Assembly: GCA_903832855.1 (NCBI GenBank)
Contig: CAILDB010000017.1
Span: 4,992 to 68,991, forward strand
DNA from: an uncultured bacterium
Lineage (GTDB): Bacteria; Patescibacteriota; Minisyncoccia; Phycocordibacterales; GWA1-40-21
Reading direction: 5' to 3'
Length of the DNA: 64,000 nt
Both the position numbers and the translations under genes were made by a program. The notes beneath the pieces are model-generated. The model worked only from the letters and a program-made list of their open reading frames with translations, did not search any database and was not told the origin of the DNA. Positions 495 through 52,770 of the stretch are shown piece by piece. Positions within the stretch are counted from its first letter, which is position 1. Every line of letters starts with the position of its first letter.

Positions 495-562
495 CTGTCA
501 TTCCCGTGAAGACAGGAATCCATCCCCTCTGTCTTTGCGAGGGTATTCCCGAAGCAATCCAG
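495..562. repeat. two hairpin repeat units
   Basis: ctgtcattcccgtgaagacaggaatccatc + ccctctgtctttgcgagggtattcccgaagcaatccag. Confidence 0.7.
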
Positions 563-23120: not shown

Positions 23121-23150
23121 CTGTCATTCCTGCGAAGGCAGGAATCCAGG
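23121..23150. repeat. hairpin repeat unit (ctgtcattcctgcgaaggcaggaatccag)
   Basis: Member of the window-wide family. Confidence 0.7.
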
Positions 23151-27158: not shown

Positions 27159-28083
27159 TATAACAGTTTTAATATTACTTATCATTTGCGCTGTGCTAGG
27201 CGCGATTTTTATTTTTGTAAAACCGGAATCATCAAAAAATTTCCCGATAATAAAATTTGGCGAACCTGTAAAAACTTTTTCACCACAGCTCAGTGAAAAT
27301 GTGCAGGATTTAGTTTTGACAACGGATTCTTTCATTTCTGTTTTTGTGGGTAAGGACAATAAGCAGAAAATTCTCATTCAACAAAATAAAGATAAACCGC
27401 TACGAATTGCAAGTATTACAAAACTTACTTCTGCTCTTGTGATAAAAGATAATGTTAAGGATGGTGATGTCATCACAATAAACAAAAGTAATATTTCAGA
27501 AGCAGAAGGAAACTCCGGAAATTTTCAAGAAAATGAAAACTTTTTTGCGATGGATTTGATGAGAGCAATGCTCATACCTTCCGACAATATTGCAGCAAAA
27601 GCATTTGCAGAAAGTATTGGCACAGAAAAATTTGTTTTGCTTATGAATGAAGAAGCAAAAAAAGTAGGCATGAAAAACTCCGCGTTTTTTAATCCATCCG
27701 GCCTCGATTATCTCCCTTACGATTCGGGCTTCAACTACAGCACCCCCGAAGACATTGCCATTGAAATGCTTTACATAAAAAATAAATATCCGGATATTTT
27801 TGCTTTGACTACATTAAAAAACACAGAAGTTTGCAATTACCGCGGACTCGCATGTCGCACTCTGATCTCAACCGACCAACTTCTAAATTCCGCCGACTTT
27901 CCATTCAAAATTCTCGGTGCAAAAACCGGCTCCACTCCACTCGCCGGCAAAAATCTCGCAATGATTATTGAGGCCCCCGAAGGGCAGGGAATTATTGTAA
28001 ATGTTGTCTTAAACTCTCTTGACCACTTCGCCGATATGAAGAAGTTAACAAATTGGGTGGCGGATTCCTATAGTTGGAAATAA
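27139..28083 (+). CDS. D-alanyl-D-alanine carboxypeptidase (serine-type, S11/PBP5-like), membrane-anchored
   Basis: SITK (SxxK), SDN and KTG motifs in the correct order; N-terminal TM. Confidence 0.8.
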   Translation: MNQKKFNITVLILLIICAVLGAIFIFVKPESSKNFPIIKFGEPVKTFSPQLSENVQDLVLTTDSFISVFVGKDNKQKILIQQNKDKPLRIASITKLTSALVIKDNVKDGDVITINKSNISEAEGNSGNFQENENFFAMDLMRAMLIPSDNIAAKAFAESIGTEKFVLLMNEEAKKVGMKNSAFFNPSGLDYLPYDSGFNYSTPEDIAIEMLYIKNKYPDIFALTTLKNTEVCNYRGLACRTLISTDQLLNSADFPFKILGAKTGSTPLAGKNLAMIIEAPEGQGIIVNVVLNSLDHFADMKKLTNWVADSYSWK

Positions 28084-28150
28084 AATCTCGCAATAAAAAA
28101 GCACGCATTCTTTCGTTTGCGTGCTGTCCTGATTATCGACTTCGTGTCGG

Positions 28151-28477
28151 TTAGCAGGAATGTGCCGGCTTCTCCACCTTCAGTCCTGCCTTGAGGCAAA
28201 TAGACTTGGCAATCCAGACGGCGCTCTTGGTTGCGAAGTAGAACAGGGCCATCGCCACAGCCCCCACAAAGGCGGCTATGATTGCCATAAAGATGGTGCT
28301 TATTGCCCACGCAAAATATAGCTCGATGGAGTTCATGTTTACAAACGTCGTTGTATAGTCGCTGGCATACAACATATGTCCAGATTTAACTGACATGGAC
28401 TGGAGAGCGAGAAGAGCCCCCACAGCAACGGCGATACCTTGCTTGAAACAGATTTTCAAAAGACTATTCATTCTCAA
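28151..28477 (-). CDS. hypothetical membrane protein
   Basis: 108 aa, three hydrophobic helices. Confidence 0.45.
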   Translation of the reverse strand: MRMNSLLKICFKQGIAVAVGALLALQSMSVKSGHMLYASDYTTTFVNMNSIELYFAWAISTIFMAIIAAFVGAVAMALFYFATKSAVWIAKSICLKAGLKVEKPAHSC

Positions 28478-28626
28478 TTCCTTTCAGTTTGAATTTTACA
28501 CTCTCAATACTTGGCGCAATGCCAAATTATGAGTCTTTTACTATGATAGCATATCTAGGTTTAAAAGTCAAGCATTTTTAGCAAAAACTGAAAATAGCTT
28601 GGAAAATATAGCTCTTTTACCTTGCT

Positions 28627-28695
28627 TCTGTCATTCCTGCGAAGGCAAGAATCCAGAGAATCGGGGATGGATCCCGGCCTGCGCCGGGATGACAG
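28627..28695. repeat. two tandem hairpin repeat units
   Basis: tctgtcattcctgcgaaggcaagaatccagag + gatggatcccggcctgcgccgggatgacag. Confidence 0.7.
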
Positions 28696-28707
28696 AGAGG
28701 AGTAAGC

Positions 28708-28955
28708 GGAAAATAAAAAGCTAAAATTTTGTTAAATAAAACAAAACGAGCCAGTATTGTCATATTTTTGCGTCCGCAGGCGAGCTTGCAAGGCGCGATG
28801 TGGTGTAATTTTGTCGAAAGTATTCTTGAGACAAAACTATACCACAGCGCAAGCCGCCGAGGATTAAGAAATTTTCCGGCTGGGGAAAATTTCTGCACAA
28901 AAATATGACAATACTGGCTCGTTTTTATTTAACAAAATTTTAGCTTTTTATTTTC
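28708..28955. repeat. ~250-bp element with ~60-bp near-perfect terminal inverted repeats (MITE-like, or a long-hairpin RNA)
   Basis: Left arm gaaaataaaaagctaaaattttgttaaataaaacaaaacgagccagtattgtcatattttt; right arm is its reverse complement with one 4-nt indel; the core holds a second imperfect 28-bp hairpin. Confidence 0.5.
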
Positions 28956-28981
28956 ACAAAATTTTGCTATAATCACAAGAA

Positions 28982-29010
28982 CTGGATTCCCGTATTCACG
29001 GGAATGACAG
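28982..29010. repeat. hairpin repeat unit in the mraY 5' leader (ctggattcccgtattcacgggaatgacag)
   Basis: 11 nt upstream of the mraY ATG. Confidence 0.7.
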
Positions 29011-29020
29011 AGCGAATATT

Positions 29021-30088
29021 ATGACCACACTTAGTTTATTAAAAATATTTCTTCCGGCACTTATTTCTTTTTTGATTGGTATTTTTTCTGCGCCAGTACT
29101 CGCCGATTTTCTTTACAAAAATAAAATGTGGAAGAAAAAAGCAAAGACGGTTGCACTAGATGGCTCCGGCACACCAATTTTCAATTCACTTCACGCAATC
29201 CGCGAAACAAACACGCCGAGAATGGGCGGGGTTTTGATTTGGAGTTCGGCGGTCATCACAGTTATCATTTTCTGGCTTTTGGCGCACTTCATTCCGGAAA
29301 TTGCAAAAATAGATTTCCTAAGCAGAAGCCAAACATGGATTCCAATTTCAACTTTGCTTCTCGGCGCAATTATCGGACTTGTGGACGACTATCTAGAAAT
29401 TAACGGAGGTGGTGGCGCACTTGCCGGCGGGCTTTCTCTCAGGAAACGCCTCCTTCTCGTCGGAATAATTTCTTTTTTTGTAGCGCTATGGTTTTATTTC
29501 AAACTCGATGTTACAGGAATTGGAATGCCATTTGGTTTTCCAATCTTTGAACTCGGCTGGTTCTTTGTTCCTTTCTTTGTGCTAGTCGCACTCGCAATTT
29601 ATTCTGGAGGTGTAATAGATGGCATTGATGGACTTGCCGGAGGAATTTTTGCTTCAATTTTTTCCGGTTACGCAATCATCGCATTCATTCAAAATCAAAT
29701 AGATATTTCTGCTTTTTGTGCGGTGCTCGTCGGAGGAATTCTTGCATTTCTTTGGTACAATATCCCGCCAGCGAGATTTTATATGTCAGAGACAGGAAGT
29801 ATGGCACTTACCATCACCCTTGTCGTTATCGCCTTTATGACCGATGTGCGAGGTGAAGGTCACGGAGTAATTACACTTCTTATCATCGGTTTTCCACTTA
29901 TCGCCACAAGTTTGTCTGTTATTATTCAACTTCTTTCCAAAAAAATTCGTGGAAAAAAGATTTTTCTTGTCGCACCACTCCATCATCATTTTGAAGCAAT
30001 CGGCTGGCCTGCAAGCAAAGTTACAATGAGATACTGGGTGGTTGGTATTATTCTCACACTTGTCGGAGTAATTTTCGCTTTTTTGTAA
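29021..30088 (+). CDS. mraY: phospho-N-acetylmuramoyl-pentapeptide transferase
   Basis: VDDYLEING and APLHHHFE motifs; 10 TM. Confidence 0.9.
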   Translation: MTTLSLLKIFLPALISFLIGIFSAPVLADFLYKNKMWKKKAKTVALDGSGTPIFNSLHAIRETNTPRMGGVLIWSSAVITVIIFWLLAHFIPEIAKIDFLSRSQTWIPISTLLLGAIIGLVDDYLEINGGGGALAGGLSLRKRLLLVGIISFFVALWFYFKLDVTGIGMPFGFPIFELGWFFVPFFVLVALAIYSGGVIDGIDGLAGGIFASIFSGYAIIAFIQNQIDISAFCAVLVGGILAFLWYNIPPARFYMSETGSMALTITLVVIAFMTDVRGEGHGVITLLIIGFPLIATSLSVIIQLLSKKIRGKKIFLVAPLHHHFEAIGWPASKVTMRYWVVGIILTLVGVIFAFL

Positions 30089-35980: not shown

Positions 35981-36179
35981 CTGTCATTCCGTTGGAGAAC
36001 GGAATCCATCCCCTCCGTCATTGCGAGTGAAATGTGAGGAAGCAAAAGTATTTGCTTCTGCAAGACTCATTGAGGGCTTTTGTGAGCAAAGCGAAACAAA
36101 AGACCCAATGAGTGGACAGTTTCTGTAAGAAAGCAATCCAGAGAATCAAAGATGGATCCCGGCCTCCGCCGGGATGACA
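35981..36179. repeat. cluster of hairpin units including one split by a ~100-bp nested insertion
   Basis: ctgtcattccgttggagaacggaatccatcc; ccgtcattgcgag[~100 bp]gaaagcaatccagag; gatggatcccggcctccgccgggatgacac. Confidence 0.65.
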
Positions 36180-36188
36180 CGAGGCGCG

Positions 36189-36668
36189 TCATTTCAATCC
36201 TGCACAACCAGAAGCCGGGGTCAAACCTTTGGCTCTAGCTTCTTCTACAGTATTTAAATAAACTTTGTTCTCTTCTTTTATACGAGCGACACCAGAACAC
36301 CAAGTGTAATAATATTTTGTACCAGATTTTGAAGCAACGATACTTCCCTTCTCTGTCACAGTAGTTTGGGATGCTTGAGTCGAAGCAGACTGGATTCCCG
36401 TATTCACGGGAATGACAGATGTGGAGGAAGTTGGATCAATGCCGTTCCACTTATAATATTCCTCCGTCTTTGTCACCGTGATTGGCTCTTTTTGCTTTTC
36501 ATAAGTTGAAAGTCTGCCTAGTGCAAAGGCCAAAGTAGCGGTAAGTAAAAAAACTGCCAAAATAAAAACAACTTCAGGCATTTTGTTCATATCAAAATAG
36601 CTTTTTGCCCTATCAACAAAGTATTTCTTTTGCCACTTGATTTTTTCTTTTAAATCGTTTATACTCAT
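36189..36668 (-). CDS. membrane-anchored protein with a C-terminal domain weakly resembling the Ada N-terminal Zn-binding fold; carries an in-frame hairpin-repeat insertion
   Basis: TM near the N-terminus; C-terminal YYYTWCSGVARIKEENKVYLNTVEEARAKGLTPASGC vs Ada CRPSCRARHALRENVSFYANASEALAAGFRPCKRC; repeat-encoded SVIPVNTGIQ. Confidence 0.45.
   Translation of the reverse strand: MSINDLKEKIKWQKKYFVDRAKSYFDMNKMPEVVFILAVFLLTATLAFALGRLSTYEKQKEPITVTKTEEYYKWNGIDPTSSTSVIPVNTGIQSASTQASQTTVTEKGSIVASKSGTKYYYTWCSGVARIKEENKVYLNTVEEARAKGLTPASGCAGLK
36389..36417. repeat. hairpin repeat unit inside the 36189..36668 CDS
   Basis: ctggattcccgtattcacgggaatgacag; translated in frame as SVIPVNTGIQ on the minus strand. 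Confidence 0.7.
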
Positions 36669-37828: not shown

Positions 37829-37896
37829 TCTGTCATTCCGTTGAAGAACGGAATCCAAAGAATCAGGGATGGATCCCGGCCTACGCCGGGATGACA
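37829..37896. repeat. two tandem hairpin units
   Basis: tctgtcattccgttgaagaacggaatccaaag + gatggatcccggcctacgccgggatgacat. Confidence 0.7.
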
Positions 37897-39576: not shown

Positions 39577-39606
39577 CTGGATCCCCGCATTCGCGAGGAT
39601 GACAGA
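39577..39606. repeat. hairpin repeat unit (ctggatccccgcattcgcgaggatgacag)
   Basis: Sits between the stop of the giant gene and the start of the 39210 gene. Confidence 0.7.
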
Positions 39607-39610
39607 GTAA

Positions 39611-42600
39611 TTATACCAATAATTTATCTTTTTTACCACGACGAATAGTAAAAATAAATATAAGATAAATGAGTGCAAGAAAGATTCCGCCGAGCAAAAT
39701 CGTCTGAAAATTAAGCAACCCTAGCAAGCTTGTCTTCGCTTTGAGTTCAATATTGATAAACACACCTTTACCTTCATCCACTTTAAATGGAGCGCCCACA
39801 TAATCAGAGTATGAGTTTGAAATAACTTTGAGCTTGTATGTGCCGACTGGAACAAGGAAAGCATATCTTCCCGTCACATCTGTCGTCTGTGGATTTTGTT
39901 GTCTAAAGTCACTTGACGGCCAGAGTTCATAAGCATTTGTCGCAGGATTTAACCAATCAATAGAAACCAAAGCATTGCTAATGCGTGTCTCCTCTCCATT
40001 ATTTATTTTGTAAACATACCCCTCCGGATCCACAACCACCACCATACTGATTGTTTTTGGTGCAATGTTTGCTTTGTAATTTATAATAGTCCTAAGTTCA
40101 TATGTTCCCAGAGCAAGAGGTGATGCAACTTCCGCAGTCCAAACACCATTTCCGGAATCAATATAATTAAATTTATTTAAAACGAGATCGGTTTGGCTGG
40201 TTGGATAACTACCAACTGTTGTGCCAGAAATTGTCGGGTTATTTTCCATTGCAAAGGCAACGGAAGCGGTCTGAGAAAGACTGGATTGCTTCGCCTTGCT
40301 CGCAATGACAGAAGAAGAAACAGAAGAGACAGAACTGGATTTAAATATCATATAACCCTGCACCGTGCTTGCCTTCCCTTCTGGCTTCACAACAAATTTA
40401 AGTGGCTGACCCTGAATAGTATTGAGAGTTTGTAGAGCAAGCCCAGCGTCTGTAACTGGTAATCCAACAGTATTCACACTCTTTAAATTAATTCCTGCAT
40501 TTGCAATTGATAATTTGACACCCAAATCAATACTTCCATCTGCTGTCTGTGCAAAAATCACATCCGTCGGTATTTGATTAATTTGTTTTTGTGAAAAGTT
40601 TGTCACTGCCACACTTTGTCCTTTTTGCAAACCGGCTATTTCAGAAAGTCCCGGCAATGAAATATTTCCTACGCCACTAAGTTGCGAAACATCACTCATT
40701 TTAGTAATGCCAATTTTTTGTAAAGTTGTAGCAACCACTGGAAATTTATTTACAATGTTTTGAAAATCACTTGGCAGACCTTCAAAAACAAAATTATTTA
40801 TATTATTTGCTATAACTGTCGGCCATTTATTCTGAAATGCAACAGGAGTAACTTGTGGGACAGATTGTGTGATAGGAGGATATGTTACATTCTCATCTTG
40901 ACCTTGTGGTATGACATTTGTAATAATTTTGGTTATTGTGTCTGTTATTGTATTTGTCACTTGTCCTGTCACAGCTTTCGTATTATCTATAACTTCAGTA
41001 ATAAGTGGCACAGCATTTAAAGTAATATTTTGTGAATAAGCAGGAGTCGCTACACCAGAAGGTGAAAGAAATTTTGTGTAAATTGTGTAATTTGCATCAG
41101 GGCAAACAGATTGTCCTTGGCAAAGATTATATTGATAAGTAGAGGTGACATATGGGATGGTCGTAATGTTTGAAAAGTCAGGATTTGTGGACACCACAAC
41201 TGCAGAAGCAGTCCCATATGGGTTTGCAGAGAATTGCAAATTAACCACTCTTTGATCTGTTGAGCCAGCTCCGTTATTTATTGAAAAGGAATATGTTGAA
41301 GTAGCGACTGGTGTAGATGAACCACCTCCCTTACTAACACTGCCATGATGAACGGCTGGAATAGTATATGTCAAATGTGTCGCAGTTCCTGAAGTATCTT
41401 TATTTCCATAAGCATCTTCACAGGCCAAATAAATATTCTTTGTTCCGGCACCTCCAAGGTCAGGTGATGTGCAAGAAATCAAAATGCTATCAGTTACAGA
41501 ACAGCTCGTGTCCCCTGACATCCCGTCATATGATTTTGCTGTAGCACTAGGCGAATATGCCAAACGACAATCCCCTGCTTCACTTAGTGTAAATGTAACA
41601 ACTTGATTATTTGAAATTCTTGAACCATCTACTGGAAGAATATTTGAAATAGTTGGCGCAACAGTTGACCATGTTAGATTGAAAGTGCTTGAAGCAGAGT
41701 TGCTAGCGAGATCAGTAGTAGTGAGAGCAATAACATATGCTCCGTCATCAGTGCCGGCTGATATTGTGGTACTTACGGCAGTGGCTGAACCAAAATTAAT
41801 TGTTCCTGGGCCAGAAACTTTTGACCACAAGTAACTTGCAATACCACTTCCACCATCAGTCGCAGAACCTGTTTGTGTAAATGTCGCTTTCTTGGACTGG
41901 TCTGCACCGGCACTTACAGAAGGCGCCGTCGTATCCCAAGTCAAATTAAATGTGCTTGAAGCGGAATTGCCGGCGAGATCTGTAGCTGTAAGAGAGATGA
42001 GATATGCTCCATCTTGATTTGCTGAAATATTTACGGTCGGCAAAGTTGTGGAACTAAAACTAACTGCTCCCGGTCCAGAAAGTTTGGACCACAAATAGCT
42101 TGCTACTTCGGAAGTAATGTCCGTAGCGGAACCTGTCTGAGAAAATAGTGCATTTTTGACCTTGTCTGCTCCTGCACTGACACTTGGCACGGTATTATCT
42201 ACAGTCACTGTAATAATAGACGAGGTCGCCTGATTTCCTGTACCATCTCGTGCGACAGCAGTGATCTCGTGATTTCCATCGTCAAGAGATGTGGTATCTA
42301 AAGTCGTAGTGTAAGGCGCAATTAGATCTTCTCCACCGATATTTGTACTCCCATCCAGTTTAAATTGAACTCCAGAAACAGATACATCATCAACGGCATT
42401 TGCCGAAACAGTCACAGAATTTCCTCTGACTTTTGCATTATTAGCCGGAGCTGTTACGGAAACCGTTGGAGCTGTAATATCTGCTTGCACAGTGAAAGAT
42501 ATTGTAAATTCGTCACTATTGACATTGCCCACTGCATCACTGCACTTGACATAATATAGATAGGAACCGCCGTTTGAAAGTTCGGAAATAATTGAAGAGT

Positions 42601-45600
42601 GCGTCGTTGTGGCTGTTGTGGTACTAAATAATGTCATACTTGCATATGAAATATTTGTAGCAGAATATTTACAAGTTGCTGGTTCATTTGTAGTCAAAGA
42701 TATCGTGGTTGAAGAAGTATTTAATGCAAGTGTTCCACCTGGTGCTCCACCCGAGCGAACCGGCGGGGAAATATCAATGAGCATAGAAGCAGAGCAAGAA
42801 GAAGTGGCTTGATTGGTTGCCGTATCAATACTTACAATTTTGTATGAATATGTGAGAGCGTCATTTCCGGTAAAATCTCTCGTCTGCAAAGAGTTTGACG
42901 CGAGGTCAATCATACTACCAGATATAGTGTCGCAAGTAGCACCCGTGTAAAATAGAATTTTTTGGTCGGCTAAGTCACCCGAATTGGACTTCGTCCACGA
43001 AGCAGTAACCGCAGTAGTACTAGCTGGAGATGTTTGGGACCAAACAAGAGATGTCGCAGTATTTGGAGCAGTCGTATCCAAAATAAAGTTACCCATACTT
43101 GTCCAAGATGAAGTGGCGACGCCATCATTGTTTTGAGCACACCAATAATATGTGGCATCACTTCCGATAGATGAGCTAGGTGTCCAAGTAGTAGTGGCGT
43201 TGTTAGAAGCAGTTTCTGCAGATGTACCACTATCTACAACCGTGCCACCTGTACAATTTACTGCACTTGATGCAATTCTATAATTAGTAGTACCTACATC
43301 AGCAGTATCTGGGTCAGAATAAATGGCTGATAAAGTGGGCGTGGTGTCTGTGGTATATGAAGCGGTCGTAGGCGAAACCAAAGTCGGAGCATTTGGTGCA
43401 GTGTTAAAATTCCAGTTTGTGTTATTGCCTCCGTTTGTGGAATTGGTTTGGGAAATTAAAGTTCCGCCCGAGGCGTTGGAATAAGCGGCGTTAACATAGC
43501 TGGCCGAGGCAGTGCCGGCGACATTTAGATACCAAGCACTTGCCGGATTCAAAGTCAGTAAAGCTCCGCTGTGTCCCGATGCCGAGAAATTTCCGCCGAC
43601 GGTGATGGTGCTGCCGATGAAGCCGGAGGCGGTCACATTGGCGACGGTGGCGGTGCCAGTATAGTTTGTGTCTGGTGCATAAGAACCCGAAATTGTAGCC
43701 GGAAAACCTCCTGACTTCCACCAGTCGTTACCCGTTGCCACTCCCGGAACCGGAGTAATAATAAATGATAAAGTATCATTTGATACATACCAGTTATCAC
43801 TTCCCCGACGATACTCTGGAATACCATTTCTTAACCCCACATAAGTATACGTCCCTATCGCGTTAGGGTTTAGCGTTCCGCTCACCGTCACTTGGTTATA
43901 ATAAGTGCCGGAAGTATTAGCCAGTCCCGAAGCGGTAATTAAAGCGCCGTCAGAGATGGTGAGATTTCTGGCGCCTGTGGTAGTGATGTTTTTCCCGCCG
44001 GCAGAAAGTGTCCCTGCTGTTACTGCAACGCTCCCCGATGCCACCAAATTATCCTGCAAAGTCCACGCTCCACCCGTCCCATTAAATGTCAGATTATTAA
44101 ATTTAGAATTCGTCGCCCCGCTCGTAATTGTTTTTCCTGTTGCAGTTGAATTAAAAATCACCGTAGAATTATCCGCCACAAACTGCGAAGGTGCGGTGCC
44201 TGTGCCGTAGTTTAGCCAGTTACCGCCGACGGTAACAGTGGAAGTTCTTCCACCTGCCCCCGTGGCGTCCAATTTCTTGAGGGCGGTGTCAGCCCCAACG
44301 CCAATGGTAATGTTACCGCCGATGGTGAGATTATAGCCGTCGGTTTTATAACCAAGTGCTCTTCCTGCTCCACCAGAAATAAAATACATGGATTTTGTTG
44401 TATTAAGGGTAACATTACCAGTTTGAGTTAATATCCCTCCGGGGACATCCACATAGATATCACTACTATAACCATTTACGAGTGCTGGAATTGATTGTGA
44501 TGCAGTTTGTCCATAAAAATAAAGCGACGGTACAGATAGTGTAGAAGCCGCATCAAAACTTAACGGAGTTGCTCCTTTCAAATACATATTACCCGATCCA
44601 GTCAGGATACCAGAACCAATCGTTACATTTGATATTATGCAAATATGTGAAGCCAAAGTTACTGTGTTACCACTTTGTCCAACTGTAAGATTATTAAATC
44701 CGTTATCCCAATAAGTTGGATTATTCCCATACGTCAGCGTATTCGTCCCATTCAGTACTAAGCTCGCCGAGTTGTATTGCGTGGAATCCAGTGTCCCATT
44801 CGCCGTAAATGTCCCATTGCCATTGACGGTGATGGTAGCGGTGCTGGCATTGAAGCGTGAAGTGATAGATGACTGGTCAAAGTTGCCCGATGATAATGTA
44901 ACTTTTGATGCACCTGTTGCCGTTACCACTCCGCCTGCCCCGACTGTCAGTCCTGCGGTAGTCCATCCAGTGTTCCCTGAAATGCCGATAGTGGTAGTGG
45001 CTCCGGTGACAGTAGAAGAACCAGTAACTGTGAGGTCGTTTGTTCCTATTGCAAATGTTCCACCTGAGACCGAGAGATTTCCTCCGACAGATATTGCAGT
45101 CGAGTTTGTAAACGAACCGCCATCTTGAGTGTAATTACCGGAAAGTGTAAATGTTCCGCCAGAAATTGTGCTGTGATTGATAACACTGCCAGTAAATGTT
45201 CCGCCAGAAATAGTGCCGTTATTTGTAACAGTCCCCGCAGAGCAAGTGCCAGATGACGGATAAGTGGCTAAACTGGCCGGGATTTCCGCTGTATAACTGG
45301 CGCTTCCGCAAGGATAACTGCCTGTCCAGTTGGCTCTGTTGGTCAAAACGCCATCTGCTGAACCGTTCCATGTACCATTGCCATCACCAAGTGTCTGCCC
45401 TTCCGAGCCAGCGCCGTTGTTGTAAAGAGTTAAAACATCATCAGCACTTAGGGCGGTGTTGTATATACGGACATCGTCAATGGAGCCAGTGAACCGATAC
45501 AAATTTTTACCTCCAACATATAAATTAGAATTTGAAATCATTTGGCTACTTGGCTGTGCAGCAGTAGCCGTTCCAGAAGGAGTGCCATCAATATAGAACC

Positions 45601-48600
45601 TCATCATATCCGCGTTTGTAGTCCCATTCCACGCAACTGTTATTAGATGCCATCCAGTAGATGTGATTGAATCGCTTGAGAAGTTGTCAATGCTACCGAA
45701 CACACCAGCATTAAATCCAAAGTATATTTTATTATTAGACCATAATCCAAAATCAAAATCGGATTCACCATTATACGTGGCCTCAGCTTTTGATAAGACA
45801 GCACCTAAATGACCCAAGCTTGCAGGATTAACCCAAACTGATAAAGTTAATGCCTTTCCAATCATATTGAGGGAATCCGAGTTTGCCACCACAACCTTAT
45901 CCCCCGTCCCATTAAAACTCATCGCCTTGCCTATTTTCGCAGTAGCCAAAAGGTCTGTGTTTCGTTGAGCTGTTCCTGTGTGTCCGCCAATGCTGTCTGC
46001 CACAGTCGTATTTGTTGAATCATCATTCATCTTGTAATGAGCCACAAGACCAGTTCCCAAAGCCCCTGCTTCACTTTCTGTCCCTGCTCCACTGGCGTAA
46101 AGTGCGTCAATAGCTGTTTGGTCTAAGGCGGTGTTGTAGATACGGACATCATCGATGGAGCCGGGGAAATAATCACCACCAGGGTTTGTTGCACGACCAA
46201 TGGTAAAATTCGCGGCATTAACAATATTCCCGGCAGTATCTACGACTGTGCCACTGCTTATCCCATTAATATAAAACTTGTATAATCCTCCAGTTCTAAC
46301 AAGCGTCACATAATTCCAAGCATTTTTAGTGACCACACTCGTACTATAGCCATAAGGGTTGAAAGTTCCATCATAAGTTTCTACATACAATTGGTTTCCT
46401 CCTCCTGCATTTATATAAGCGAATATGTATCCTGTACCGCCTGATGTAGAAATAATTGCTCTTTTGTATACATCTGCATCAACACTAGGTTTAATCCAAG
46501 CCGATAAAGAAAAATCCCCTGTCCCAAATTGCAAAGAAGAAGGATTCCCAGCATCCACATAATCACTCGTCCCATTAAAACTCAAAGCACTGCCGATTTT
46601 TGAGGTAGTCATAATAGAAGTGTTTGTCGCCGATGTTCCTGTATTTGAACCAACGCTATCTGCAACAACAAGCGAAGCTGCGTCATCATTCATTGTGTAA
46701 TGAGCCACAAGACCGCTCCCCAAATTCGCCGGAGTTAAATAGCGGACAATCACGATACCGGAACCGCCGTTTCCGCCAGGAAAACCATTCCACATTCCGC
46801 CGCCGCCGCCGCCCGTGTTGGGAGTGCCAGCCGTCCCGCCATAATCTCCTCCTGCTCCGCCCCCGCCGAGTCCTCCGCTACCGGGAGTCGTTTGCCCTGC
46901 ACCGCCGCCACCGCCTCCGTATACGGCAGATATGCCGGACAATTGATTGGACATCCCTGCTCCGCCGTTGCCACCGACTTGGGACGTGCTTGCAGTATCT
47001 CCGTTGGTAGATGCCCCACCACCGCCGCCGCCTTTCTGTGCATAATTGTTGTTTCCGCCAGCAAAACCCTGCCCATTTGTTGCACTGCCACCAACCGTGT
47101 TGCCGCCCCACGACCCACCAGCTCCACCACCCGAACCTCCTGGAAATCCGTTACCATTCTTTCCACCCGCACCACCCCCAAAGGCAGTAAGACCCGCAAA
47201 AACAGAGTTGGAACCGTCGCTCGCGTCTACGGGACTACTTAGCCAGCCCCTTCCCCCTGCGCCGACAATAACTGGATATTCTCCCGTCACCGCCAAACTG
47301 CCTGTCAGTACCCCGCCTCCACCACCGCCTCCTACACTACCTCCACCGCCACCCGCCACCACCAACACATCAGCAGAAGTAACTCCTGTTGGCAGAGTTA
47401 ATGTTGTAGTTCCAACAGTTGTATATGTACAAACAGTGTAAAGCGGGTCGTCGGGCGCGGTAGCGCAAACCGGGTCAACAATATAGTCAATGTCTACGTT
47501 GCCTGAGATTTTTAAATCAAAAACATCTGTGGGAGTTTGTAAATTTTGTAAAAGTATTCGGTATTTGCCGTCTTCAGAAATATTTTCAAAAGTTGGATTT
47601 GTGCCGTCGGAAACTGTTTCCAGCATTTGACCTTGGGTTTGATTTCCATCTTCATCGGTATAAACAGGATAAACCTCAACACTTGCTGATTGACCATTAT
47701 TTGTTGATTTTGCGTAAACCGTAATATCTTTTGTCTCATCCAAAATCTTTTGGAAAGTAACACGAACATAGTTTCCATTTGGTACAGTGGCATAATCTTT
47801 GTCTTGTGTTGCAACTATGTCATAAATATCATTAATAATTTCTTTGTTTTGGTCTAACTCAAAGGCTTTTGAAATAAAGATAATTTCAAAAGTTTGTGTT
47901 GAGAGGTGCGGGACAGTCCATTCTACATAGTCCAGTTTGCCATTGCTGTTGAGGTCATAGGCGTGGAATGTAACATTCTGGTCGCCATTATTTGTCCATT
48001 TAATTTTGATTTTTGATTCTTGACCTACTTTGTAAATTTCGGGGATGTTGGTAAAGGCGAGGACATTGGTGAGGTGCTCGGGTCCCGAGGTTGCCGAGGG
48101 ACCAGCTATTTCTGGTGCAGAAACCTGAACTATTTTTCCTGTGTCTGTGTTTGCTTCTGCAATAGTTGGAGCTGGGGTTTCGTATGATACAAGGACGGTG
48201 GAAGATGAAACGGATTCGGAAGGAGTTGAAGAGGACTGGATTGCTTCGCTTGTGCTCGCAATGACAGAAGAAGAAACAGAGGAAGTCGAAGAGGGATGGA
48301 TCCCGACCTCCGTCGGGATGACAGAATCAGAAGAGGAAGCAGAGGAAGTCCCCGCTCCCGTATTGTCATTCCGTTGAAGAACGGAATCCATCCCCGATTC
48401 CTGTGATGATGTTGCAGATGAAGTAGAAACAAATGAAGAGATATCGAGATTTAGAATTGGGAGTGATGTGGCCTGCCCCGTTAGAAGTAGGCTACTTGTA
48501 GCCGTTAGTTCTAATGGGGTGGAGGAAAATTGATCTGTAGAAGAAGATGGGGAGGACTGGATTCCTGCCTCCGCAGGAATGACAGAGGAGTCCTTGTCCT

Positions 48601-49270
48601 TCTTTTCTGTCTTGTCTGCTTTTTCTACTTTATCTTTTTTGTTTGAATCCTTTGATAAAGTGTCGGAGGACTGGATTGCTTCGTCTTCACTCGCAATGAC
48701 GGAAGAGTCGGGTATCTGCGTACTGAGGTCTATGATGACAGTATCGGGAGCTTGGTCACCTGAAAGTGCTTCGTCAACAGTTGCAAACATTTTTCCCATT
48801 TTTGAAAAGATATTTTGAAAGAAAGCAAAAAAACCTTTTGCATTTTTTTGCTTGATTGATTTTGCAAGTGCAAGAGATGCTGATGAGCTGGCTCTCTGAC
48901 TCGCGAGTTCTGATAATTTTATTCTGTCTGCGTTTGTGAGATTCCCCGACTTGGACATGGCATGTCCAAGTGCAGTGGTTGTGGAAATTTTTACATTATC
49001 TGCAACTTTCGGAATTACTAAAAGATGCTGATTTGAATTTATGCTAACTGTCTTTACCCATTTTATTGGCTCTCCGGGGACTGACGGAAGCTGACTTGTA
49101 ATAGTGCCTTTGACGAGAGCAACATTATTATCTTGAGAATTATTTGAAAGGCTTGAAAAATCAGATATCTTGTAGACAGCAAAAATCAAAGCCACCAATA
49201 CCACAGCGACACCCAAAACCACTAGAGTTTTTTTGAGACCAGATTTTTTATAAATTTCCTCTTGCTCCAT
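39611..49270 (-). CDS. giant (3219 aa) cell-surface protein
   Basis: Single 9.66-kb ORF with TM anchors at both ends. In N-to-C order: Ser-rich linker carrying hairpin-repeat insertions; Gly-rich domain; two laminin-G/ConA-like domains (DDVRIYNTAL x2); beta-helix-like T/S/G/N-rich region; Ig-like domains; two tandem PKD domains (SAGADQ...SYLWSK.SGPG); CarboxypepD_reg-like domain. Confidence 0.85.
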   Translation of the reverse strand: MEQEEIYKKSGLKKTLVVLGVAVVLVALIFAVYKISDFSSLSNNSQDNNVALVKGTITSQLPSVPGEPIKWVKTVSINSNQHLLVIPKVADNVKISTTTALGHAMSKSGNLTNADRIKLSELASQRASSSASLALAKSIKQKNAKGFFAFFQNIFSKMGKMFATVDEALSGDQAPDTVIIDLSTQIPDSSVIASEDEAIQSSDTLSKDSNKKDKVEKADKTEKKDKDSSVIPAEAGIQSSPSSSTDQFSSTPLELTATSSLLLTGQATSLPILNLDISSFVSTSSATSSQESGMDSVLQRNDNTGAGTSSASSSDSVIPTEVGIHPSSTSSVSSSVIASTSEAIQSSSTPSESVSSSTVLVSYETPAPTIAEANTDTGKIVQVSAPEIAGPSATSGPEHLTNVLAFTNIPEIYKVGQESKIKIKWTNNGDQNVTFHAYDLNSNGKLDYVEWTVPHLSTQTFEIIFISKAFELDQNKEIINDIYDIVATQDKDYATVPNGNYVRVTFQKILDETKDITVYAKSTNNGQSASVEVYPVYTDEDGNQTQGQMLETVSDGTNPTFENISEDGKYRILLQNLQTPTDVFDLKISGNVDIDYIVDPVCATAPDDPLYTVCTYTTVGTTTLTLPTGVTSADVLVVAGGGGGSVGGGGGGGVLTGSLAVTGEYPVIVGAGGRGWLSSPVDASDGSNSVFAGLTAFGGGAGGKNGNGFPGGSGGGAGGSWGGNTVGGSATNGQGFAGGNNNYAQKGGGGGGASTNGDTASTSQVGGNGGAGMSNQLSGISAVYGGGGGGAGQTTPGSGGLGGGGAGGDYGGTAGTPNTGGGGGGMWNGFPGGNGGSGIVIVRYLTPANLGSGLVAHYTMNDDAASLVVADSVGSNTGTSATNTSIMTTSKIGSALSFNGTSDYVDAGNPSSLQFGTGDFSLSAWIKPSVDADVYKRAIISTSGGTGYIFAYINAGGGNQLYVETYDGTFNPYGYSTSVVTKNAWNYVTLVRTGGLYKFYINGISSGTVVDTAGNIVNAANFTIGRATNPGGDYFPGSIDDVRIYNTALDQTAIDALYASGAGTESEAGALGTGLVAHYKMNDDSTNTTVADSIGGHTGTAQRNTDLLATAKIGKAMSFNGTGDKVVVANSDSLNMIGKALTLSVWVNPASLGHLGAVLSKAEATYNGESDFDFGLWSNNKIYFGFNAGVFGSIDNFSSDSITSTGWHLITVAWNGTTNADMMRFYIDGTPSGTATAAQPSSQMISNSNLYVGGKNLYRFTGSIDDVRIYNTALSADDVLTLYNNGAGSEGQTLGDGNGTWNGSADGVLTNRANWTGSYPCGSASYTAEIPASLATYPSSGTCSAGTVTNNGTISGGTFTGSVINHSTISGGTFTLSGNYTQDGGSFTNSTAISVGGNLSVSGGTFAIGTNDLTVTGSSTVTGATTTIGISGNTGWTTAGLTVGAGGVVTATGASKVTLSSGNFDQSSITSRFNASTATITVNGNGTFTANGTLDSTQYNSASLVLNGTNTLTYGNNPTYWDNGFNNLTVGQSGNTVTLASHICIISNVTIGSGILTGSGNMYLKGATPLSFDAASTLSVPSLYFYGQTASQSIPALVNGYSSDIYVDVPGGILTQTGNVTLNTTKSMYFISGGAGRALGYKTDGYNLTIGGNITIGVGADTALKKLDATGAGGRTSTVTVGGNWLNYGTGTAPSQFVADNSTVIFNSTATGKTITSGATNSKFNNLTFNGTGGAWTLQDNLVASGSVAVTAGTLSAGGKNITTTGARNLTISDGALITASGLANTSGTYYNQVTVSGTLNPNAIGTYTYVGLRNGIPEYRRGSDNWYVSNDTLSFIITPVPGVATGNDWWKSGGFPATISGSYAPDTNYTGTATVANVTASGFIGSTITVGGNFSASGHSGALLTLNPASAWYLNVAGTASASYVNAAYSNASGGTLISQTNSTNGGNNTNWNFNTAPNAPTLVSPTTASYTTDTTPTLSAIYSDPDTADVGTTNYRIASSAVNCTGGTVVDSGTSAETASNNATTTWTPSSSIGSDATYYWCAQNNDGVATSSWTSMGNFILDTTAPNTATSLVWSQTSPASTTAVTASWTKSNSGDLADQKILFYTGATCDTISGSMIDLASNSLQTRDFTGNDALTYSYKIVSIDTATNQATSSCSASMLIDISPPVRSGGAPGGTLALNTSSTTISLTTNEPATCKYSATNISYASMTLFSTTTATTTHSSIISELSNGGSYLYYVKCSDAVGNVNSDEFTISFTVQADITAPTVSVTAPANNAKVRGNSVTVSANAVDDVSVSGVQFKLDGSTNIGGEDLIAPYTTTLDTTSLDDGNHEITAVARDGTGNQATSSIITVTVDNTVPSVSAGADKVKNALFSQTGSATDITSEVASYLWSKLSGPGAVSFSSTTLPTVNISANQDGAYLISLTATDLAGNSASSTFNLTWDTTAPSVSAGADQSKKATFTQTGSATDGGSGIASYLWSKVSGPGTINFGSATAVSTTISAGTDDGAYVIALTTTDLASNSASSTFNLTWSTVAPTISNILPVDGSRISNNQVVTFTLSEAGDCRLAYSPSATAKSYDGMSGDTSCSVTDSILISCTSPDLGGAGTKNIYLACEDAYGNKDTSGTATHLTYTIPAVHHGSVSKGGGSSTPVATSTYSFSINNGAGSTDQRVVNLQFSANPYGTASAVVVSTNPDFSNITTIPYVTSTYQYNLCQGQSVCPDANYTIYTKFLSPSGVATPAYSQNITLNAVPLITEVIDNTKAVTGQVTNTITDTITKIITNVIPQGQDENVTYPPITQSVPQVTPVAFQNKWPTVIANNINNFVFEGLPSDFQNIVNKFPVVATTLQKIGITKMSDVSQLSGVGNISLPGLSEIAGLQKGQSVAVTNFSQKQINQIPTDVIFAQTADGSIDLGVKLSIANAGINLKSVNTVGLPVTDAGLALQTLNTIQGQPLKFVVKPEGKASTVQGYMIFKSSSVSSVSSSVIASKAKQSSLSQTASVAFAMENNPTISGTTVGSYPTSQTDLVLNKFNYIDSGNGVWTAEVASPLALGTYELRTIINYKANIAPKTISMVVVVDPEGYVYKINNGEETRISNALVSIDWLNPATNAYELWPSSDFRQQNPQTTDVTGRYAFLVPVGTYKLKVISNSYSDYVGAPFKVDEGKGVFINIELKAKTSLLGLLNFQTILLGGIFLALIYLIFIFTIRRGKKDKLLV
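40281..40312. repeat. hairpin repeat unit inside the giant gene (C-terminal region)
   Basis: ctggattgcttcgccttgctcgcaatgacag, giving SVIASKAKQS in frame. Confidence 0.7.
48236..48395. repeat. array of four hairpin units inside the giant gene N-terminal linker
   Basis: Encodes SVIASTSEAIQ, SVIPTEVGIH and, in inverse orientation, MDSVLQRND, all in frame. Confidence 0.7.
48557..48585. repeat. hairpin unit inside the giant gene
   Basis: ctggattcctgcctccgcaggaatgacag, giving SVIPAEAGIQ. Confidence 0.7.
48671..48700. repeat. hairpin unit inside the giant gene
   Basis: ctggattgcttcgtcttcactcgcaatgac, giving SVIASEDEAIQ. Confidence 0.7.
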
Positions 49271-51249: not shown

Positions 51250-52770
51250 ATGTTTAACTTTCTCAAATCTAAAAAAGTTGTCTTTCTCTATAATACTCTT
51301 TCCAGAAAAAAAGAGGTTTTTAGACCTATTAAAAAAGGTCAGGTGAAATTTTATCAATGTGGACCGACAGTTTATTGGACTCAACATATTGGCAACATGC
51401 GTGCATTTGTTTTGTCTGATTTTATGCGTCGTTCTCTTTCATATCTTGGATACAAAGTAACTTTTATAAGAAATTATACTGATGTCGGACATCTGACTTC
51501 CGATAGTGATGTGGGCGAAGACAAAATGGAAAAAGCCGTAAAAAGAGAAGGTGGAAGTCCAAAGGAAATTGCCGATAAATACACAAAGATTTTTGAAAGT
51601 GATACAAATGATTTGAATATTTTAGAGCCGGATTTCAAACCTCGTGCTACAGAATTTGTTGCAGATATTATTGATTCAGTTGGAATTTTAATTAAAAAAG
51701 GATTCGCCTACCCTACCGATCTTGCAATTTATTTTGATATTTCAAAAGCAAAAGATTACACCAAACTTTCCGGACAAAATCTGGAAGAAAATAAAAGTGG
51801 CGCAGGAAATGCTGAAGTTGAAGATAAACAGAAAAGAAATCCTGCCGATTTTGCTCTGTGGTTTTTCAAAGCAGGAAAGCACGCAAATGCTTTGCAATTT
51901 TGGCCATCACCTTTTACTTCTTCACTTGTTAAAAACGGCGAAGGTTTCCCTGGCTGGCACATAGAATGTTCTGTAATGGTCAAAAAACTTCTTGGAAATA
52001 CGATAGATATTCATATGGGCGGAGTAGAACACATTCCTGTTCATCACACAAATGAAATAGCTCAAAGCGAAGCACTCAATGGTGTTACTTTTGTAAATTA
52101 TTGGCTACATAATGAATGGCTTATGGCAGATGGCGGAAAAATATCTAAATCAGTTGGCACAGCATTTAGTTTATCCGATTTGAAGGAAAAAAGTTTTAAT
52201 CCTCTGGTCTTGCGATATTTCTTTATGCAGGCACATTATCGTTCCAAACAAAACTTTACTTGGGAGGCACTTGAAGGTGCGAGGAACGGTTACGAACATT
52301 TGATAAATCAAATCTCTGTCATTGCGAGCAAAGCGAAGCAATCCAGTCTTCTTCTGTCATCCCGGCGCAGGCCGGGATCCATCTCCTCCTCTGTCATTGC
52401 GAGTGAAACGAAGCAATCCATCGGCCATACTGACCCCACTTTCAAAACCAAATTTTCTAAAATAATCGGTGATGACTTTGGTATTTCCCAAGCACTCGCA
52501 CTTCTTCAGGAAGTCTTGAAATCAGACATTCCAAAAGAAAATAAACTTGCGACTATTTACGATTTTGATAAAGTTCTTGGACTGGATTTACAAAAGGCCG
52601 CCGAACTTTCTGAAAATATTCCCGACGAAATCATAAAACTTGCAGAAGAAAGAAAACTCGCCCGCTCCGACAAAAACTGGTCAAAATCCGACGAACTCCG
52701 CGACAAAATAGCATCTCTTGGTTATGAAATCAAAGATTCTTCTGCTGGATACGAAATTTCTAAAAAGTAG
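51250..52770 (+). CDS. cysS: cysteinyl-tRNA synthetase (with a 39-aa repeat-derived in-frame insertion)
   Basis: YQCGPTVYWTQHIGNMR (HIGH) and KISKSVG (KMSKS); 506 aa including the SVIASKAKQSSLLLSSRRRPGSISSSVIASETKQSI insert. Confidence 0.9.
   Translation: MFNFLKSKKVVFLYNTLSRKKEVFRPIKKGQVKFYQCGPTVYWTQHIGNMRAFVLSDFMRRSLSYLGYKVTFIRNYTDVGHLTSDSDVGEDKMEKAVKREGGSPKEIADKYTKIFESDTNDLNILEPDFKPRATEFVADIIDSVGILIKKGFAYPTDLAIYFDISKAKDYTKLSGQNLEENKSGAGNAEVEDKQKRNPADFALWFFKAGKHANALQFWPSPFTSSLVKNGEGFPGWHIECSVMVKKLLGNTIDIHMGGVEHIPVHHTNEIAQSEALNGVTFVNYWLHNEWLMADGGKISKSVGTAFSLSDLKEKSFNPLVLRYFFMQAHYRSKQNFTWEALEGARNGYEHLINQISVIASKAKQSSLLLSSRRRPGSISSSVIASETKQSIGHTDPTFKTKFSKIIGDDFGISQALALLQEVLKSDIPKENKLATIYDFDKVLGLDLQKAAELSENIPDEIIKLAEERKLARSDKNWSKSDELRDKIASLGYEIKDSSAGYEISKK
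52314..52430. repeat. three tandem hairpin units inside cysS
   Basis: ctctgtcattgcgagcaaagcgaagcaatccag + tcttcttctgtcatcccggcgcaggccgggatccatc + tcctcctctgtcattgcgagtgaaacgaagcaatccatc. Confidence 0.75.

What the first reader, a model, noticed from the sequence alone, without database searches (positions are those of the whole stretch)
28708..28955. 250-bp element with ~60-bp perfect terminal inverted repeats and a nested inner hairpin upstream of mraY
Left arm gaaaataaaaagctaaaattttgttaaataaaacaaaacgagccagtattgtcatattttt (28708..28770) and right arm 28898..28955 are reverse complements apart from one 4-nt indel. The ~125-bp core contains a second imperfect 28-bp inverted repeat (gcgcgatgtggtgtaattttgtcgaaag / cttgagacaaaactataccacagcgc). 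No protein-coding potential; the track ORF 28617..28898 is spurious. Candidates are a MITE, a very long hairpin ncRNA or antisense regulator, or a recombination/attachment site. It sits just upstream of the cell-wall operon and next to hairpin-unit copies, so this looks like an insertion hotspot.
Basis: seen in the sequence. Interest (0 to 1): 0.55.

Follow-up and report, generated by a model that had tools for sequence, protein, structure and literature searches.

The report
Repeated palindromic mobile-like element near mraY
The 250-bp palindrome upstream of mraY is real and is not unique: it is one of at least three copies of a non-coding, hairpin-forming repeat in a freshwater CPR bacterium, and it looks most like a small non-autonomous mobile element that also drives recombination.

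Summary
Arms 28709-28770 and 28898-28955 are perfect complements apart from a 4-nt bulge, and they enclose a 127-nt core with two hairpins (fold z about -16).

The element (E1) is not an isolated palindrome. What is very probably the same genome (Minisyncoccia/Paceibacterota, lake metagenomes) carries two more copies. E2 lies directly after ftsQ and is about 93% identical to E1. E3 lies 3 nt after ftsA. E3 has only the inner 18-nt inverted repeats and is flanked by a perfect 8-bp direct repeat.

Five relatives with the same gene order have 66-90 bp between dac and mraY, against 937 bp here.

A sister species carries the ftsQ copy in the opposite orientation. That copy is 94% identical, while the neighbouring genes are 83-84% identical.

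Two independent contigs join ftsQ to E1 through the 71 nt that E1 and E2 share.

No transposase, recombinase, promoter in the core, Rfam family, phage match or plasmid match was found.

Best reading: a MITE-like palindromic repeat family, new for CPR bacteria, that also serves as a recombination substrate (confidence about 0.55).

Two features are left unexplained. The tip of hairpin 1 is hypervariable yet covarying, and all three copies sit next to cell-division or cell-wall genes. Both leave room for a functional structured element.

The parts
28709..28955 (.). Whole palindrome (copy E1 of the repeat family plus its copy-specific outer extension)
28709..28770 (.). Left arm, 62 nt. It carries the 4-nt bulge CAAA. 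E2 and the sister-species copy have a bulge at the same place.
28898..28955 (.). Right arm, 58 nt
28709..28722 (.). Copy-specific outer inverted repeat GAAAATAAAAAGCT. It is the inverted duplicate of the native promoter flank at 28942-28955 and is not shared with E2 or E3.
28942..28955 (+). AGCTTTTTATTTTC: outer end of the right arm. It is homologous to the conserved GCTTTTGGTTTTT upstream part of the mraY promoter in relatives that lack the element.
28723..28730 (.). Self-complementary octamer AAAATTTT at the left end of the unit shared by E1 and E2. Its partner is at 28934-28941. It is either the tip of the terminal repeat or an 8-bp duplication of a palindromic target. Relative L005 has AAAATTTT at the empty site.
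28934..28941 (.). Right-hand AAAATTTT octamer
28755..28770 (.). Inner inverted repeat TATTGTCATATTTTTG. Its partner is at 28898-28913. This is the only part of the arms shared with copy E3.
28771..28897 (.). Core, 127 nt. Outside the hairpin tip, 107-108 of 110 positions are identical among E1, E2 and E3.
28793..28850 (.). It has a G.U pair and an A/C mismatch that are conserved in all copies.
28814..28831 (.). Hypervariable tip of hairpin 1. The 3-bp stem covaries (AAG/CTT here, GTG/CAC in E2, GCG/CGC in E3) above a conserved GA/GA internal loop.
28867..28894 (.). Hairpin 2: 11-bp perfect stem with loop GGCTGG. It is identical in E1 and E2. Its position on one side of the core gives the element its orientation.
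28847..28917 (.). 71-nt stretch identical between E1 and E2. The crossover in hybrid contigs L012 and L013 lies within it.
28945..28973 (+). mraY promoter: TTTTTA, 17-nt spacer, TGcTATAAT. It is conserved in relatives. The 23-nt tandem repeat 28922-28944/28945-28967 overlaps it.
28629..28694 (.). Pair of REP-like hairpin units in inverted orientation (28629-28654 and 28669-28694). They belong to a separate repeat family.
28984..29009 (-). Hairpin unit inserted between the mraY -10 box and the start codon
28151..28471 (-). 106-aa ORFan membrane-like gene (P0121). It has its own promoter (28543-28571) and a terminator hairpin (about 28098-28130). It is part of the roughly 850-870 bp (937-bp spacer against 66-90 bp) that relatives lack.
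28084..29020 (.). dac-mraY spacer: 937 bp here, against 66-90 bp in five relatives

Best explanation
E1 is one copy of a small, non-coding, palindromic repeat family. The shared unit is about 175 nt: 18-24-nt inner inverted repeats around a 127-nt two-hairpin core. E1 and E2 extend this to about 220 nt with AT-rich outer arms. The family behaves like a non-autonomous transposable element (MITE-like). I infer that it is copied to new intergenic sites by a transposase encoded elsewhere, probably one that makes 8-bp target duplications. Once present, the near-identical copies and their inverted arms act as substrates for recombination. That accounts for the flipped copy in the sister species and for the E1xE2 hybrid contigs. 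The near-perfect 60-bp arms of E1 are partly secondary, because the outermost 14 nt are an inverted duplicate of the adjacent native promoter DNA. I attribute that duplicate to hairpin-templated strand switching during replication. Shown: multiple copies, inverted repeats, absence from relatives, one 8-bp direct repeat, the orientation flip, the hybrid junctions. Inferred: transposition in trans, the mechanism of palindrome extension, and that all loci belong to one genome.
For: A second copy, E2, lies after ftsQ (L020 4742-4985) and is 92.8% identical to E1 over 221 nt.
A third copy, E3, lies 3 nt after the ftsA stop codon (L026 10734-10909; nhmmer E = 1e-57). It has 18-nt inner repeats and a perfect 8-bp direct repeat, CTCATTCG, at both ends.
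That makes three copies in about 79 kb of sampled genome.
Relatives with 79-81% MraY identity and the same gene order have a dac-mraY spacer of only 66-90 bp. The relative L024 has a 73-bp hairpin between ftsQ and the next gene.
nhmmer finds no copy in any locus from the relatives.
L005 has AAAATTTT exactly where E1 abuts the native promoter.
The element is non-coding.
Short contigs end inside the element or in the adjacent hairpin-unit repeat, as expected of repeated DNA.
Hybrid contigs L012 and L013 come from two different assemblies and samples. They join ftsQ and the E2 arm to the E1 core, the 106-aa gene and dac.
The sister species L023 has the element after ftsQ in the reverse orientation.
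Against: No transposase or recombinase was found among window ORFs of at least 130 aa or in the 15 kb of L026.
No parent element was found. The one arm 20-mer searched gave only chance hits in GTDB species genomes and JGI metagenomes. That 20-mer does not match E2 or E3, so those searches were insensitive.
The target duplication is clear only for E3. E1 and E2 end in the self-complementary AAAATTTT, which is ambiguous. E3's 8-mer resembles the corresponding E1/E2 arm segment at 5 of 8 positions, so it may be arm sequence rather than target.
The tips of E1/E2 and of E3 differ, which is awkward for a single transposase.
The element is more conserved between sister species (94%) than the flanking genes (83-84%). 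It also shows covariation in an internal hairpin. Either could indicate selection for a function rather than selfish spread.
The dac-mraY insertion is about 850-870 bp of mixed content, so a clean empty site for E1 alone cannot be shown.
Confidence: 0.55

Rival explanations
1. The element is a selected, structured cis-acting element (RNA or single-stranded DNA) tied to cell-division and cell-wall genes. Examples would be a long hairpin that ends or insulates transcription units, or one that is cut by RNase III or bound by a protein. The variable tip of hairpin 1 would act as a specificity determinant.
For: All three copies lie next to dcw-type genes: upstream of mraY, and directly after the stop codons of ftsQ and ftsA.
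Identity between sister species is 94%, against 83-84% for neighbouring coding DNA, and other intergenic DNA cannot be aligned.
Seven of 68 pairs show compensatory changes; 0 of 500 shuffles reach the observed covariation score and 1 of 500 the count of such pairs. Slid controls give 0-1.
Variable columns are concentrated in the hairpin-1 tip (9 of 18, against 4 of 110 in the rest of the core; Fisher p = 1.4e-6), while pairing and a non-complementary GA/GA loop are kept.
In E1 and E2 the stem CTGGCTCG is followed by TTTTTATTT on both strands, as in a bidirectional terminator.
The relative L024 has an ordinary terminator hairpin in the place of E2.
Against: Orientation relative to the neighbouring gene is not conserved: E2 is flipped between L020 and L023.
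E3 has no U-tract after its stem.
There is no Rfam match.
No promoter was detected in or aimed at the element.
Only three sequences are available, and in a DNA palindrome compensatory changes can arise by template switching without selection.
The association with dcw genes is biased, because E2 was found through E1 and E3 lies 5.5 kb from E2.
The element is absent from relatives that carry the same genes.
Confidence: 0.2
2. The element is an invertible DNA switch (inverton). A recombinase flips the core between the inverted arms to change expression of mraY or of the divergent 106-aa gene.
For: Long near-identical inverted repeats flank a short asymmetric core right next to a promoter.
The ftsQ copy is found in both orientations across two species.
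The arms of E1 are kept perfect, as repeated flipping would do.
Against: Every contig of this species that reaches the E1 core reads it in the same orientation (window, L010, L011, L012, L013, L014, L015), as do L020, L021 and L022 for E2.
The scans found no promoter-like site in the core.
No recombinase gene was found in the 64-kb window or in L026.
The conserved mraY promoter lies outside the invertible part.
E3 has only 18-nt arms.
Confidence: 0.07
3. The palindrome is a one-off local inverted duplication made by a replication error next to the mraY promoter, with no family and no function.
For: The outer 14 nt of the left arm is an inverted copy of native promoter DNA.
A 23-nt tandem repeat lies at the same place.
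E2 likewise has its own copy-specific outer inverted repeat, which copies the T-run of the neighbouring terminator.
Against: The core and most of the arms recur at two other loci and in a sister species. The bulk of the palindrome is therefore inherited family sequence, and only its outermost extension can be local.
Confidence: 0.03

Closest known systems
Bacterial MITEs and palindromic intergenic repeats (Correia/NEMIS of Neisseria, ERIC/IRU of enterobacteria, RUP of pneumococcus); comparison made from general knowledge
   Same: It is short and non-coding, with terminal inverted repeats that let the whole unit fold into one long hairpin. It is intergenic, present in several copies per genome, absent from orthologous sites in relatives, and placed beside promoters and gene ends. 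One copy is flanked by a direct repeat. The copies act as recombination substrates.
   Different: There is no sequence similarity to any of them and no matching insertion sequence. The arms are unusually long (up to 48 nt shared, 60 nt with the local extension). The core is itself a nested pair of hairpins with a hypervariable, covarying tip. The copy-specific inverted (not direct) duplication of flanking DNA is, to my knowledge, not described for these families. The host is a CPR bacterium, and two full-text searches found no description of such elements there.
REP/REPIN elements
   Same: The neighbouring 26-nt hairpin units (TGTCATYCC...GGRATCC), single or as inverted doublets, look like REP/REPIN sequences. 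Like them, E is a hairpin-forming intergenic repeat.
   Different: E is five to ten times longer and shares no sequence with the hairpin units beyond a TGTCAT motif. No RAYT-type gene was seen.
Invertons (invertible promoters)
   Same: Inverted repeats flank a short segment beside a promoter, and opposite orientations were seen at an orthologous site.
   Different: No promoter was found in the core, no recombinase nearby, and no orientation mixture within the species. The element also exists as dispersed copies.
Bidirectional intrinsic terminators
   Same: E1 and E2 have an A-tract, a stem ending in a G+C-rich segment, and a T-tract on both strands. E2 and E3 sit directly after stop codons. 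E2 takes the place of an ordinary terminator hairpin found in a relative.
   Different: The 'loop' is 127 nt long and structured. E3 has no T-tract. E1 lies upstream of a promoter between divergent genes.

Membership tests
MITE | Short (under about 500 bp) and without coding capacity | tested here: met
   The copies are 175-247 bp. There is no Pfam match. The frame has stop codons in E2. No gene was called there.
MITE | Terminal inverted repeats | tested here: met
   E1 has 58/62-nt arms. E2 has arms about 88% complementary. E3 has 18-nt arms with one mismatch.
MITE | Several dispersed copies in one genome | tested here: met
   E1 is in the window. E2 and E3 are on contig k141_313808. That these belong to the same genome is inferred from the hybrid contigs, the shared hairpin-unit family, and a relative MAG that holds both loci.
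MITE | Target-site duplication (direct repeat) at the ends | tested here: inconclusive
   E3 has a perfect 8-bp CTCATTCG on both sides. E1 and E2 end in the self-complementary AAAATTTT, which fits either a repeat tip or an 8-bp duplication. Beyond that octamer the flanks are inverted repeats, not direct repeats.
MITE | Empty orthologous sites in related genomes | tested here: inconclusive
   Relatives lack the element at both loci. However, the extra DNA also includes ORFan genes and hairpin units, so no clean excision-size difference can be shown.
MITE | Autonomous parent element with the same ends and a transposase | tested here: not met
   None was found in the window, in L026 or in any fetched locus. 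Collection scans with one arm 20-mer gave only chance hits. The rest of the genome could not be searched.
Inverton | Both orientations present within one population | tested here: not met
   All contigs of this species show one orientation per locus. The opposite orientation was seen only in a sister species. Read-level data were not available.
Inverton | Promoter inside the invertible segment | tested here: not met
   No promoter-like site was found in the core of E1, E2 or E3. There is only a TGgTATAGT motif without a -35 box (read from the sequence).
Inverton | Site-specific recombinase encoded nearby | tested here: not met
   Pfam scans of 30 of the window's ORFs of at least 130 aa and the gene table of L026 show none.
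Rfam RNA families | Match to a curated covariance model | tested here: not met
   There were no hits at gathering thresholds in the window. Only sub-threshold noise appeared in 28050-29100.
Intrinsic terminator | G+C-rich stem immediately followed by a U-tract | tested here: inconclusive
   This is present on both strands of E1 and E2 (CTGGCTCG then TTTTTATTT). It is absent in E3. The scanner cannot score a 127-nt loop.

The most novel reading that the evidence does not exclude
The element is not selfish DNA. It is a conserved structured RNA or DNA module that marks cell-division and cell-wall transcription units (mraY, ftsQ, ftsA) in this CPR lineage. Its hypervariable, covarying hairpin tip acts as a copy-specific address, and its inverted arms allow orientation switching. 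That would be a previously undescribed cis-regulatory or recombinational system coordinating division genes in a reduced genome.
Probability: 0.12. Interest if true: 0.7.

Novelty: new member of a known kind. Interest (0 to 1): 0.42.

Why it matters
CPR/Patescibacteria genomes are small, streamlined and thought to be poor in mobile DNA. A hairpin repeat family that sits at promoters and gene ends of essential division genes would show that repeat-driven genome plasticity operates in these organisms too. This family is better conserved than the genes around it. It flips between species, and it apparently recombines between copies to rearrange the chromosome. It also gives a concrete cause for the contig breaks and hybrid contigs seen in metagenome assemblies of this species. 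The inverted duplication of flanking DNA at two copies is an unusual signature and may be worth a mechanistic look. If the conservation and the dcw association reflect function, the element would be a new regulatory device.

Tried and rejected
1. Exact 20-mer of the E1 arm in GTDB species genomes and JGI metagenomes. There was one hit in each, both inside unrelated sequence and both by chance. In hindsight a core 20-mer would have been the better probe, because E2 and E3 do not carry that arm 20-mer.
2. Viral contigs (three patterns), and phage and plasmid collections by blastn: nothing.
3. Rfam at gathering and permissive thresholds: nothing meaningful.
4. Search of 1.84 billion protein representatives with the open frame across E1, hoping to catch spurious ORFs called on other copies. 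The only hits were two translations of unrelated tandem repeats.
5. Looking for a nearby recombinase or transposase: none.
6. Fetching the rest of the 85-kb source contig via the ClpB-like ORF. The ORF as I delimited it is not on record.
7. A TA or other short target duplication for E1 and E2: not present.
8. Fold-back origin of the E1 left arm from its right arm. Rejected because the 3-4-nt bulge in the left arm is shared with E2 and the sister-species copy.
9. Assembly artefact. Rejected because several independent assemblies agree.
10. Literature searches for MITEs or palindromic repeats in CPR bacteria: nothing relevant.

Full report
**Observation.** The sequence is as described. The left arm (28709-28770, 62 nt) and right arm (28898-28955, 58 nt) are exact reverse complements except for four extra bases (CAAA) in the left arm. 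The 127-nt core holds an extended imperfect hairpin (hairpin 1, 28793-28850) and a perfect 11-bp hairpin (hairpin 2, 28867-28894). The 266-nt stretch folds at -133.6 kcal/mol on the + strand and -130.2 on the - strand. The z-scores are -16 and -19, and no shuffle folds as well. Nothing else in the 64-kb window resembles the arms or the core. The ORF 28617-28898 is not a gene. It has no family match, the public assembly does not call it, and its frame contains stops in the paralogous copy.

**Source and setting.** The window is part of an 85-kb scaffold from a lake metagenome (ENA ERZ18667579). The closest named MraY homologues come from Minisyncoccia/Paceibacterota MAGs, that is CPR bacteria. 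The window is ordinary chromosome, with aminoacyl-tRNA synthetases, dnaK, dnaB, rpoA and similar genes, and no recombinase or transposase among the 30 ORFs of at least 130 aa that were scanned.

The local gene order is aspS, HIT, scpA, scpB, dac, then mraY, ftsW, murG, gltX. Five loci from relatives with 79-81% MraY identity have the same order. Their dac-mraY spacer is only 66-90 bp and contains a conserved promoter, GCTTTTGGTTTTTATATTATTTTGyTATAATCA, ending 7 nt before the ATG. Here the spacer is 937 bp. The extra DNA holds four things:
- A divergently oriented 106-aa ORFan with its own promoter, ribosome-binding site and terminator.
- A doublet of REP-like hairpin units.
- The palindrome itself.
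- A further hairpin unit between the -10 box and the mraY start codon.

**The palindrome is partly native DNA.** Aligning the promoter region with the relatives shows homology beginning at about 28938. The outermost 14-18 nt of the right arm (TTTTAGCTTTTTATTTTC) is thus the upstream part of the mraY promoter, which is present in species that lack the element. The matching outer end of the left arm (GAAAATAAAAAGCT) must be an inverted duplicate of that native flank.

**More copies.** The 106-aa ORFan is on record (P0121), and looking up its contigs gave ten places. Most match the window. Two independent contigs, L012 and L013, come from different samples (the megahit-style name k141_ of L013 suggests a different assembler). 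They follow the window from dac through the whole palindrome to 28941, and then continue into serS and ftsQ instead of mraY.

The normal serS-ftsQ locus (L020, L021, L022, L026) explains this. Directly after the ftsQ stop codon lies a second copy, E2. It is 92.8% identical to E1 over 221 nt, and its arms are only about 88% complementary. L012 is identical to L020 for its first 1800 nt or more and 99.9% identical to the window afterwards. The switch lies inside a 71-nt stretch (28847-28917) that E1 and E2 share exactly.

An HMM of E1 and E2 then found a third copy, E3, on the same contig, 3 nt after the stop codon of the ftsA-like gene (E = 1e-57). E3 has the full core but only 18-nt inner inverted repeats (TATTGCCATATTTCAGTG / CACTGAAATATGGCAACA). 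It lacks the AT-rich outer arms and is bracketed by a perfect 8-bp direct repeat, CTCATTCG.

That makes three copies in about 79 kb of sampled sequence. None was found in about 40 kb of loci from relatives.

**Sister species.** A contig with 82% FtsQ identity (L023) also has the element right after ftsQ. The contig ends inside hairpin 1 of the element. The 98 nt present are 94% identical to E2 but in the opposite orientation, while the surrounding coding DNA is 83-84% identical and other intergenic DNA does not align. There are two possible readings. Either the element was inherited and flipped by recombination between its arms, or it inserted independently at the same spot. The far junction is missing, so I cannot tell which.

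**Internal conservation pattern.** Outside the tip of hairpin 1, the core is identical at 107-108 of 110 positions among the copies. In the 18-nt tip, half the columns vary (9 of 18 against 4 of 110; p = 1.4e-6). The tip keeps its shape nonetheless. The 3-bp stem is AAG/CTT, GTG/CAC or GCG/CGC, closing a TATT or TAAT loop, above a non-complementary GA/GA internal loop that is kept in E1 and E3 and is GAA/GA in E2. E3's inner arms differ from E1's by three compensated changes. Overall, 7 of 68 pairs show double changes, 97.5% of cells are paired, 0 of 500 shuffles reach the observed covariation score (1 of 500 for the count of such pairs), and slid controls give 0-1. With only three related sequences, and with a DNA palindrome that can correct itself by template switching, this is suggestive of structural constraint but does not prove it.

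**Ends of the unit.** E1 and E2 share sequence out to the self-complementary octamer AAAATTTT on both sides. Beyond it, each copy has its own 12-14-nt inverted repeat:
- E1 has GAAAATAAAAAGCT / AGCTTTTTATTTTC. The second half is native promoter DNA.
- E2 has GTTTTCTTTTAC / GCAAAAGAAAAAC. The second half reads on the other strand as the U-tract of what looks like the terminator hairpin of the neighbouring 84-aa gene (read from the sequence; the scanner did not flag it).

In each case one half has an evident native role and the other is its inverted copy. L023 lacks this extension on the ftsQ side.

I read this as secondary outward growth of the palindrome by hairpin-templated strand switching (inference). 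An alternative is insertion into pre-existing AT-rich palindromes centred on AAAATTTT. L005 does have AAAATTTT at the empty site, which would make the octamer an 8-bp target duplication, matching the 8 bp of E3.

**Mechanism.** The best-supported account is a MITE-like, non-autonomous mobile repeat whose copies also recombine. The evidence for it:
- It is short and non-coding.
- It has inverted ends.
- It is dispersed in several copies.
- It is absent from relatives.
- One copy has a clear 8-bp direct repeat.

The evidence against it, or still missing:
- No transposase or parent element was found.
- The ends of E1/E2 are ambiguous.
- The tips of the long and short forms differ.
- Conservation is higher than that of the flanking genes.

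I put this account at about 0.55.

A selected structural or regulatory element is the main rival, at about 0.2. All three copies touch division or cell-wall genes, E2 and E3 sit at stop codons, E1 and E2 look like oversized bidirectional terminators, and the tip covaries. Against this, orientation is not conserved, E3 has no U-tract, there is no Rfam match, and no promoter was found.

A true inverton gets about 0.07. It lacks a core promoter, a recombinase, and any orientation mixture among the contigs.

A unique local duplication is refuted, except as the origin of the outer extension.

**Comparison and novelty.** The element works like Correia-, ERIC- or RUP-type palindromic repeats (from general knowledge), but it shares no sequence with them. 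Full MITE membership fails on the missing parent element and is unresolved on target duplications. Searches of viral, phage and plasmid collections found nothing. Two literature searches found no description of such elements in CPR bacteria. I rate it a new member of a known kind and moderately interesting. Its unusual features are the nested-hairpin core with a hypervariable covarying tip, the inverted duplication of flanks, and the apparent role in rearrangements between the mraY and ftsQ loci.

Noticed in passing
window 496-521, 23122-23147, 28629-28694, 28984-29009, 35982-36417, 37831-37896, 39579-39604, 48298-48584, 52355-52380; L026 7754-7779, 11314-11339: There is a separate family of 26-nt REP-like hairpin units, TGTCATYCC-(stem/loop)-GGRATCC, with compensatory stem variation. 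A related TGTCATTGCGAG...GCAATCC type also occurs. The window has at least 15 copies. Some form inverted doublets with a conserved spacer (REPIN-like). From memory, they resemble the Neisseria dRS3 motif ATTCCC-N8-GGGAAT.
   Followed up: partly
window 39611-49270 (- strand), especially 48298-48584: A 3219-aa ORF reads straight through about five hairpin units in frame in its Ser-rich N-terminal part (peptides such as SSVIPAEAGIQSS, DSVIPTEVGIHPS, SSVIASEDEAIQSS). This recalls the Rickettsia palindromic elements that insert into coding sequence.
   Followed up: partly
window 28968-29023: In relatives the mraY -10 box ends 7 nt before the ATG, which suggests a leaderless mRNA. Here a 30-nt hairpin unit has been inserted between the -10 box and the ATG. 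That creates a structured 47-nt leader without an obvious Shine-Dalgarno sequence.
   Followed up: no
window 28151-28471 (- strand); L026 5288-5542 (- strand): Two lineage-specific small ORFan genes sit next to copies of the element. One is a 106-aa membrane-like protein beside E1, whose only database match is itself. The other is an 84-aa protein beside E2, with a perfect TTGACA-16-TATAAT promoter. Relatives lack both genes.
   Followed up: partly
L012 and L013 (whole contigs); window 28847-28917: The hybrid contigs join serS-ftsQ to the 106-aa gene and dac through the 71 nt shared by E1 and E2. Both contigs start at the same base inside serS (L020 position 3044). They represent either a real minority rearrangement or a recurrent assembly chimera.
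   Followed up: partly
L026 4999-5242 and 10734-10909: E2 and E3 lie in the same orientation 5.5 kb apart. They bracket the 84-aa, 633-aa, 138-aa, murA and ftsA genes. Recombination between them would delete or duplicate essential genes.
   Followed up: no
L026 10960-11215: Downstream of E3 lies an uncalled 61-aa ORF rich in Arg and Cys (CxxC...CxxC, zinc-ribbon-like). It has its own ribosome-binding site and a strong intrinsic terminator.
   Followed up: no
window 28914-28921 versus L026 5032-5039 and 10734-10741/10902-10909: The 4-8 nt just outside the inner repeat appears 'flipped' in some arms. E1's right arm has CTCG where E2's has CGAG, and E3 has CTCATTCG as a direct rather than inverted repeat. 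This is unexplained. It may be a relic of an 8-bp target duplication that was partly converted to a palindrome.
   Followed up: partly
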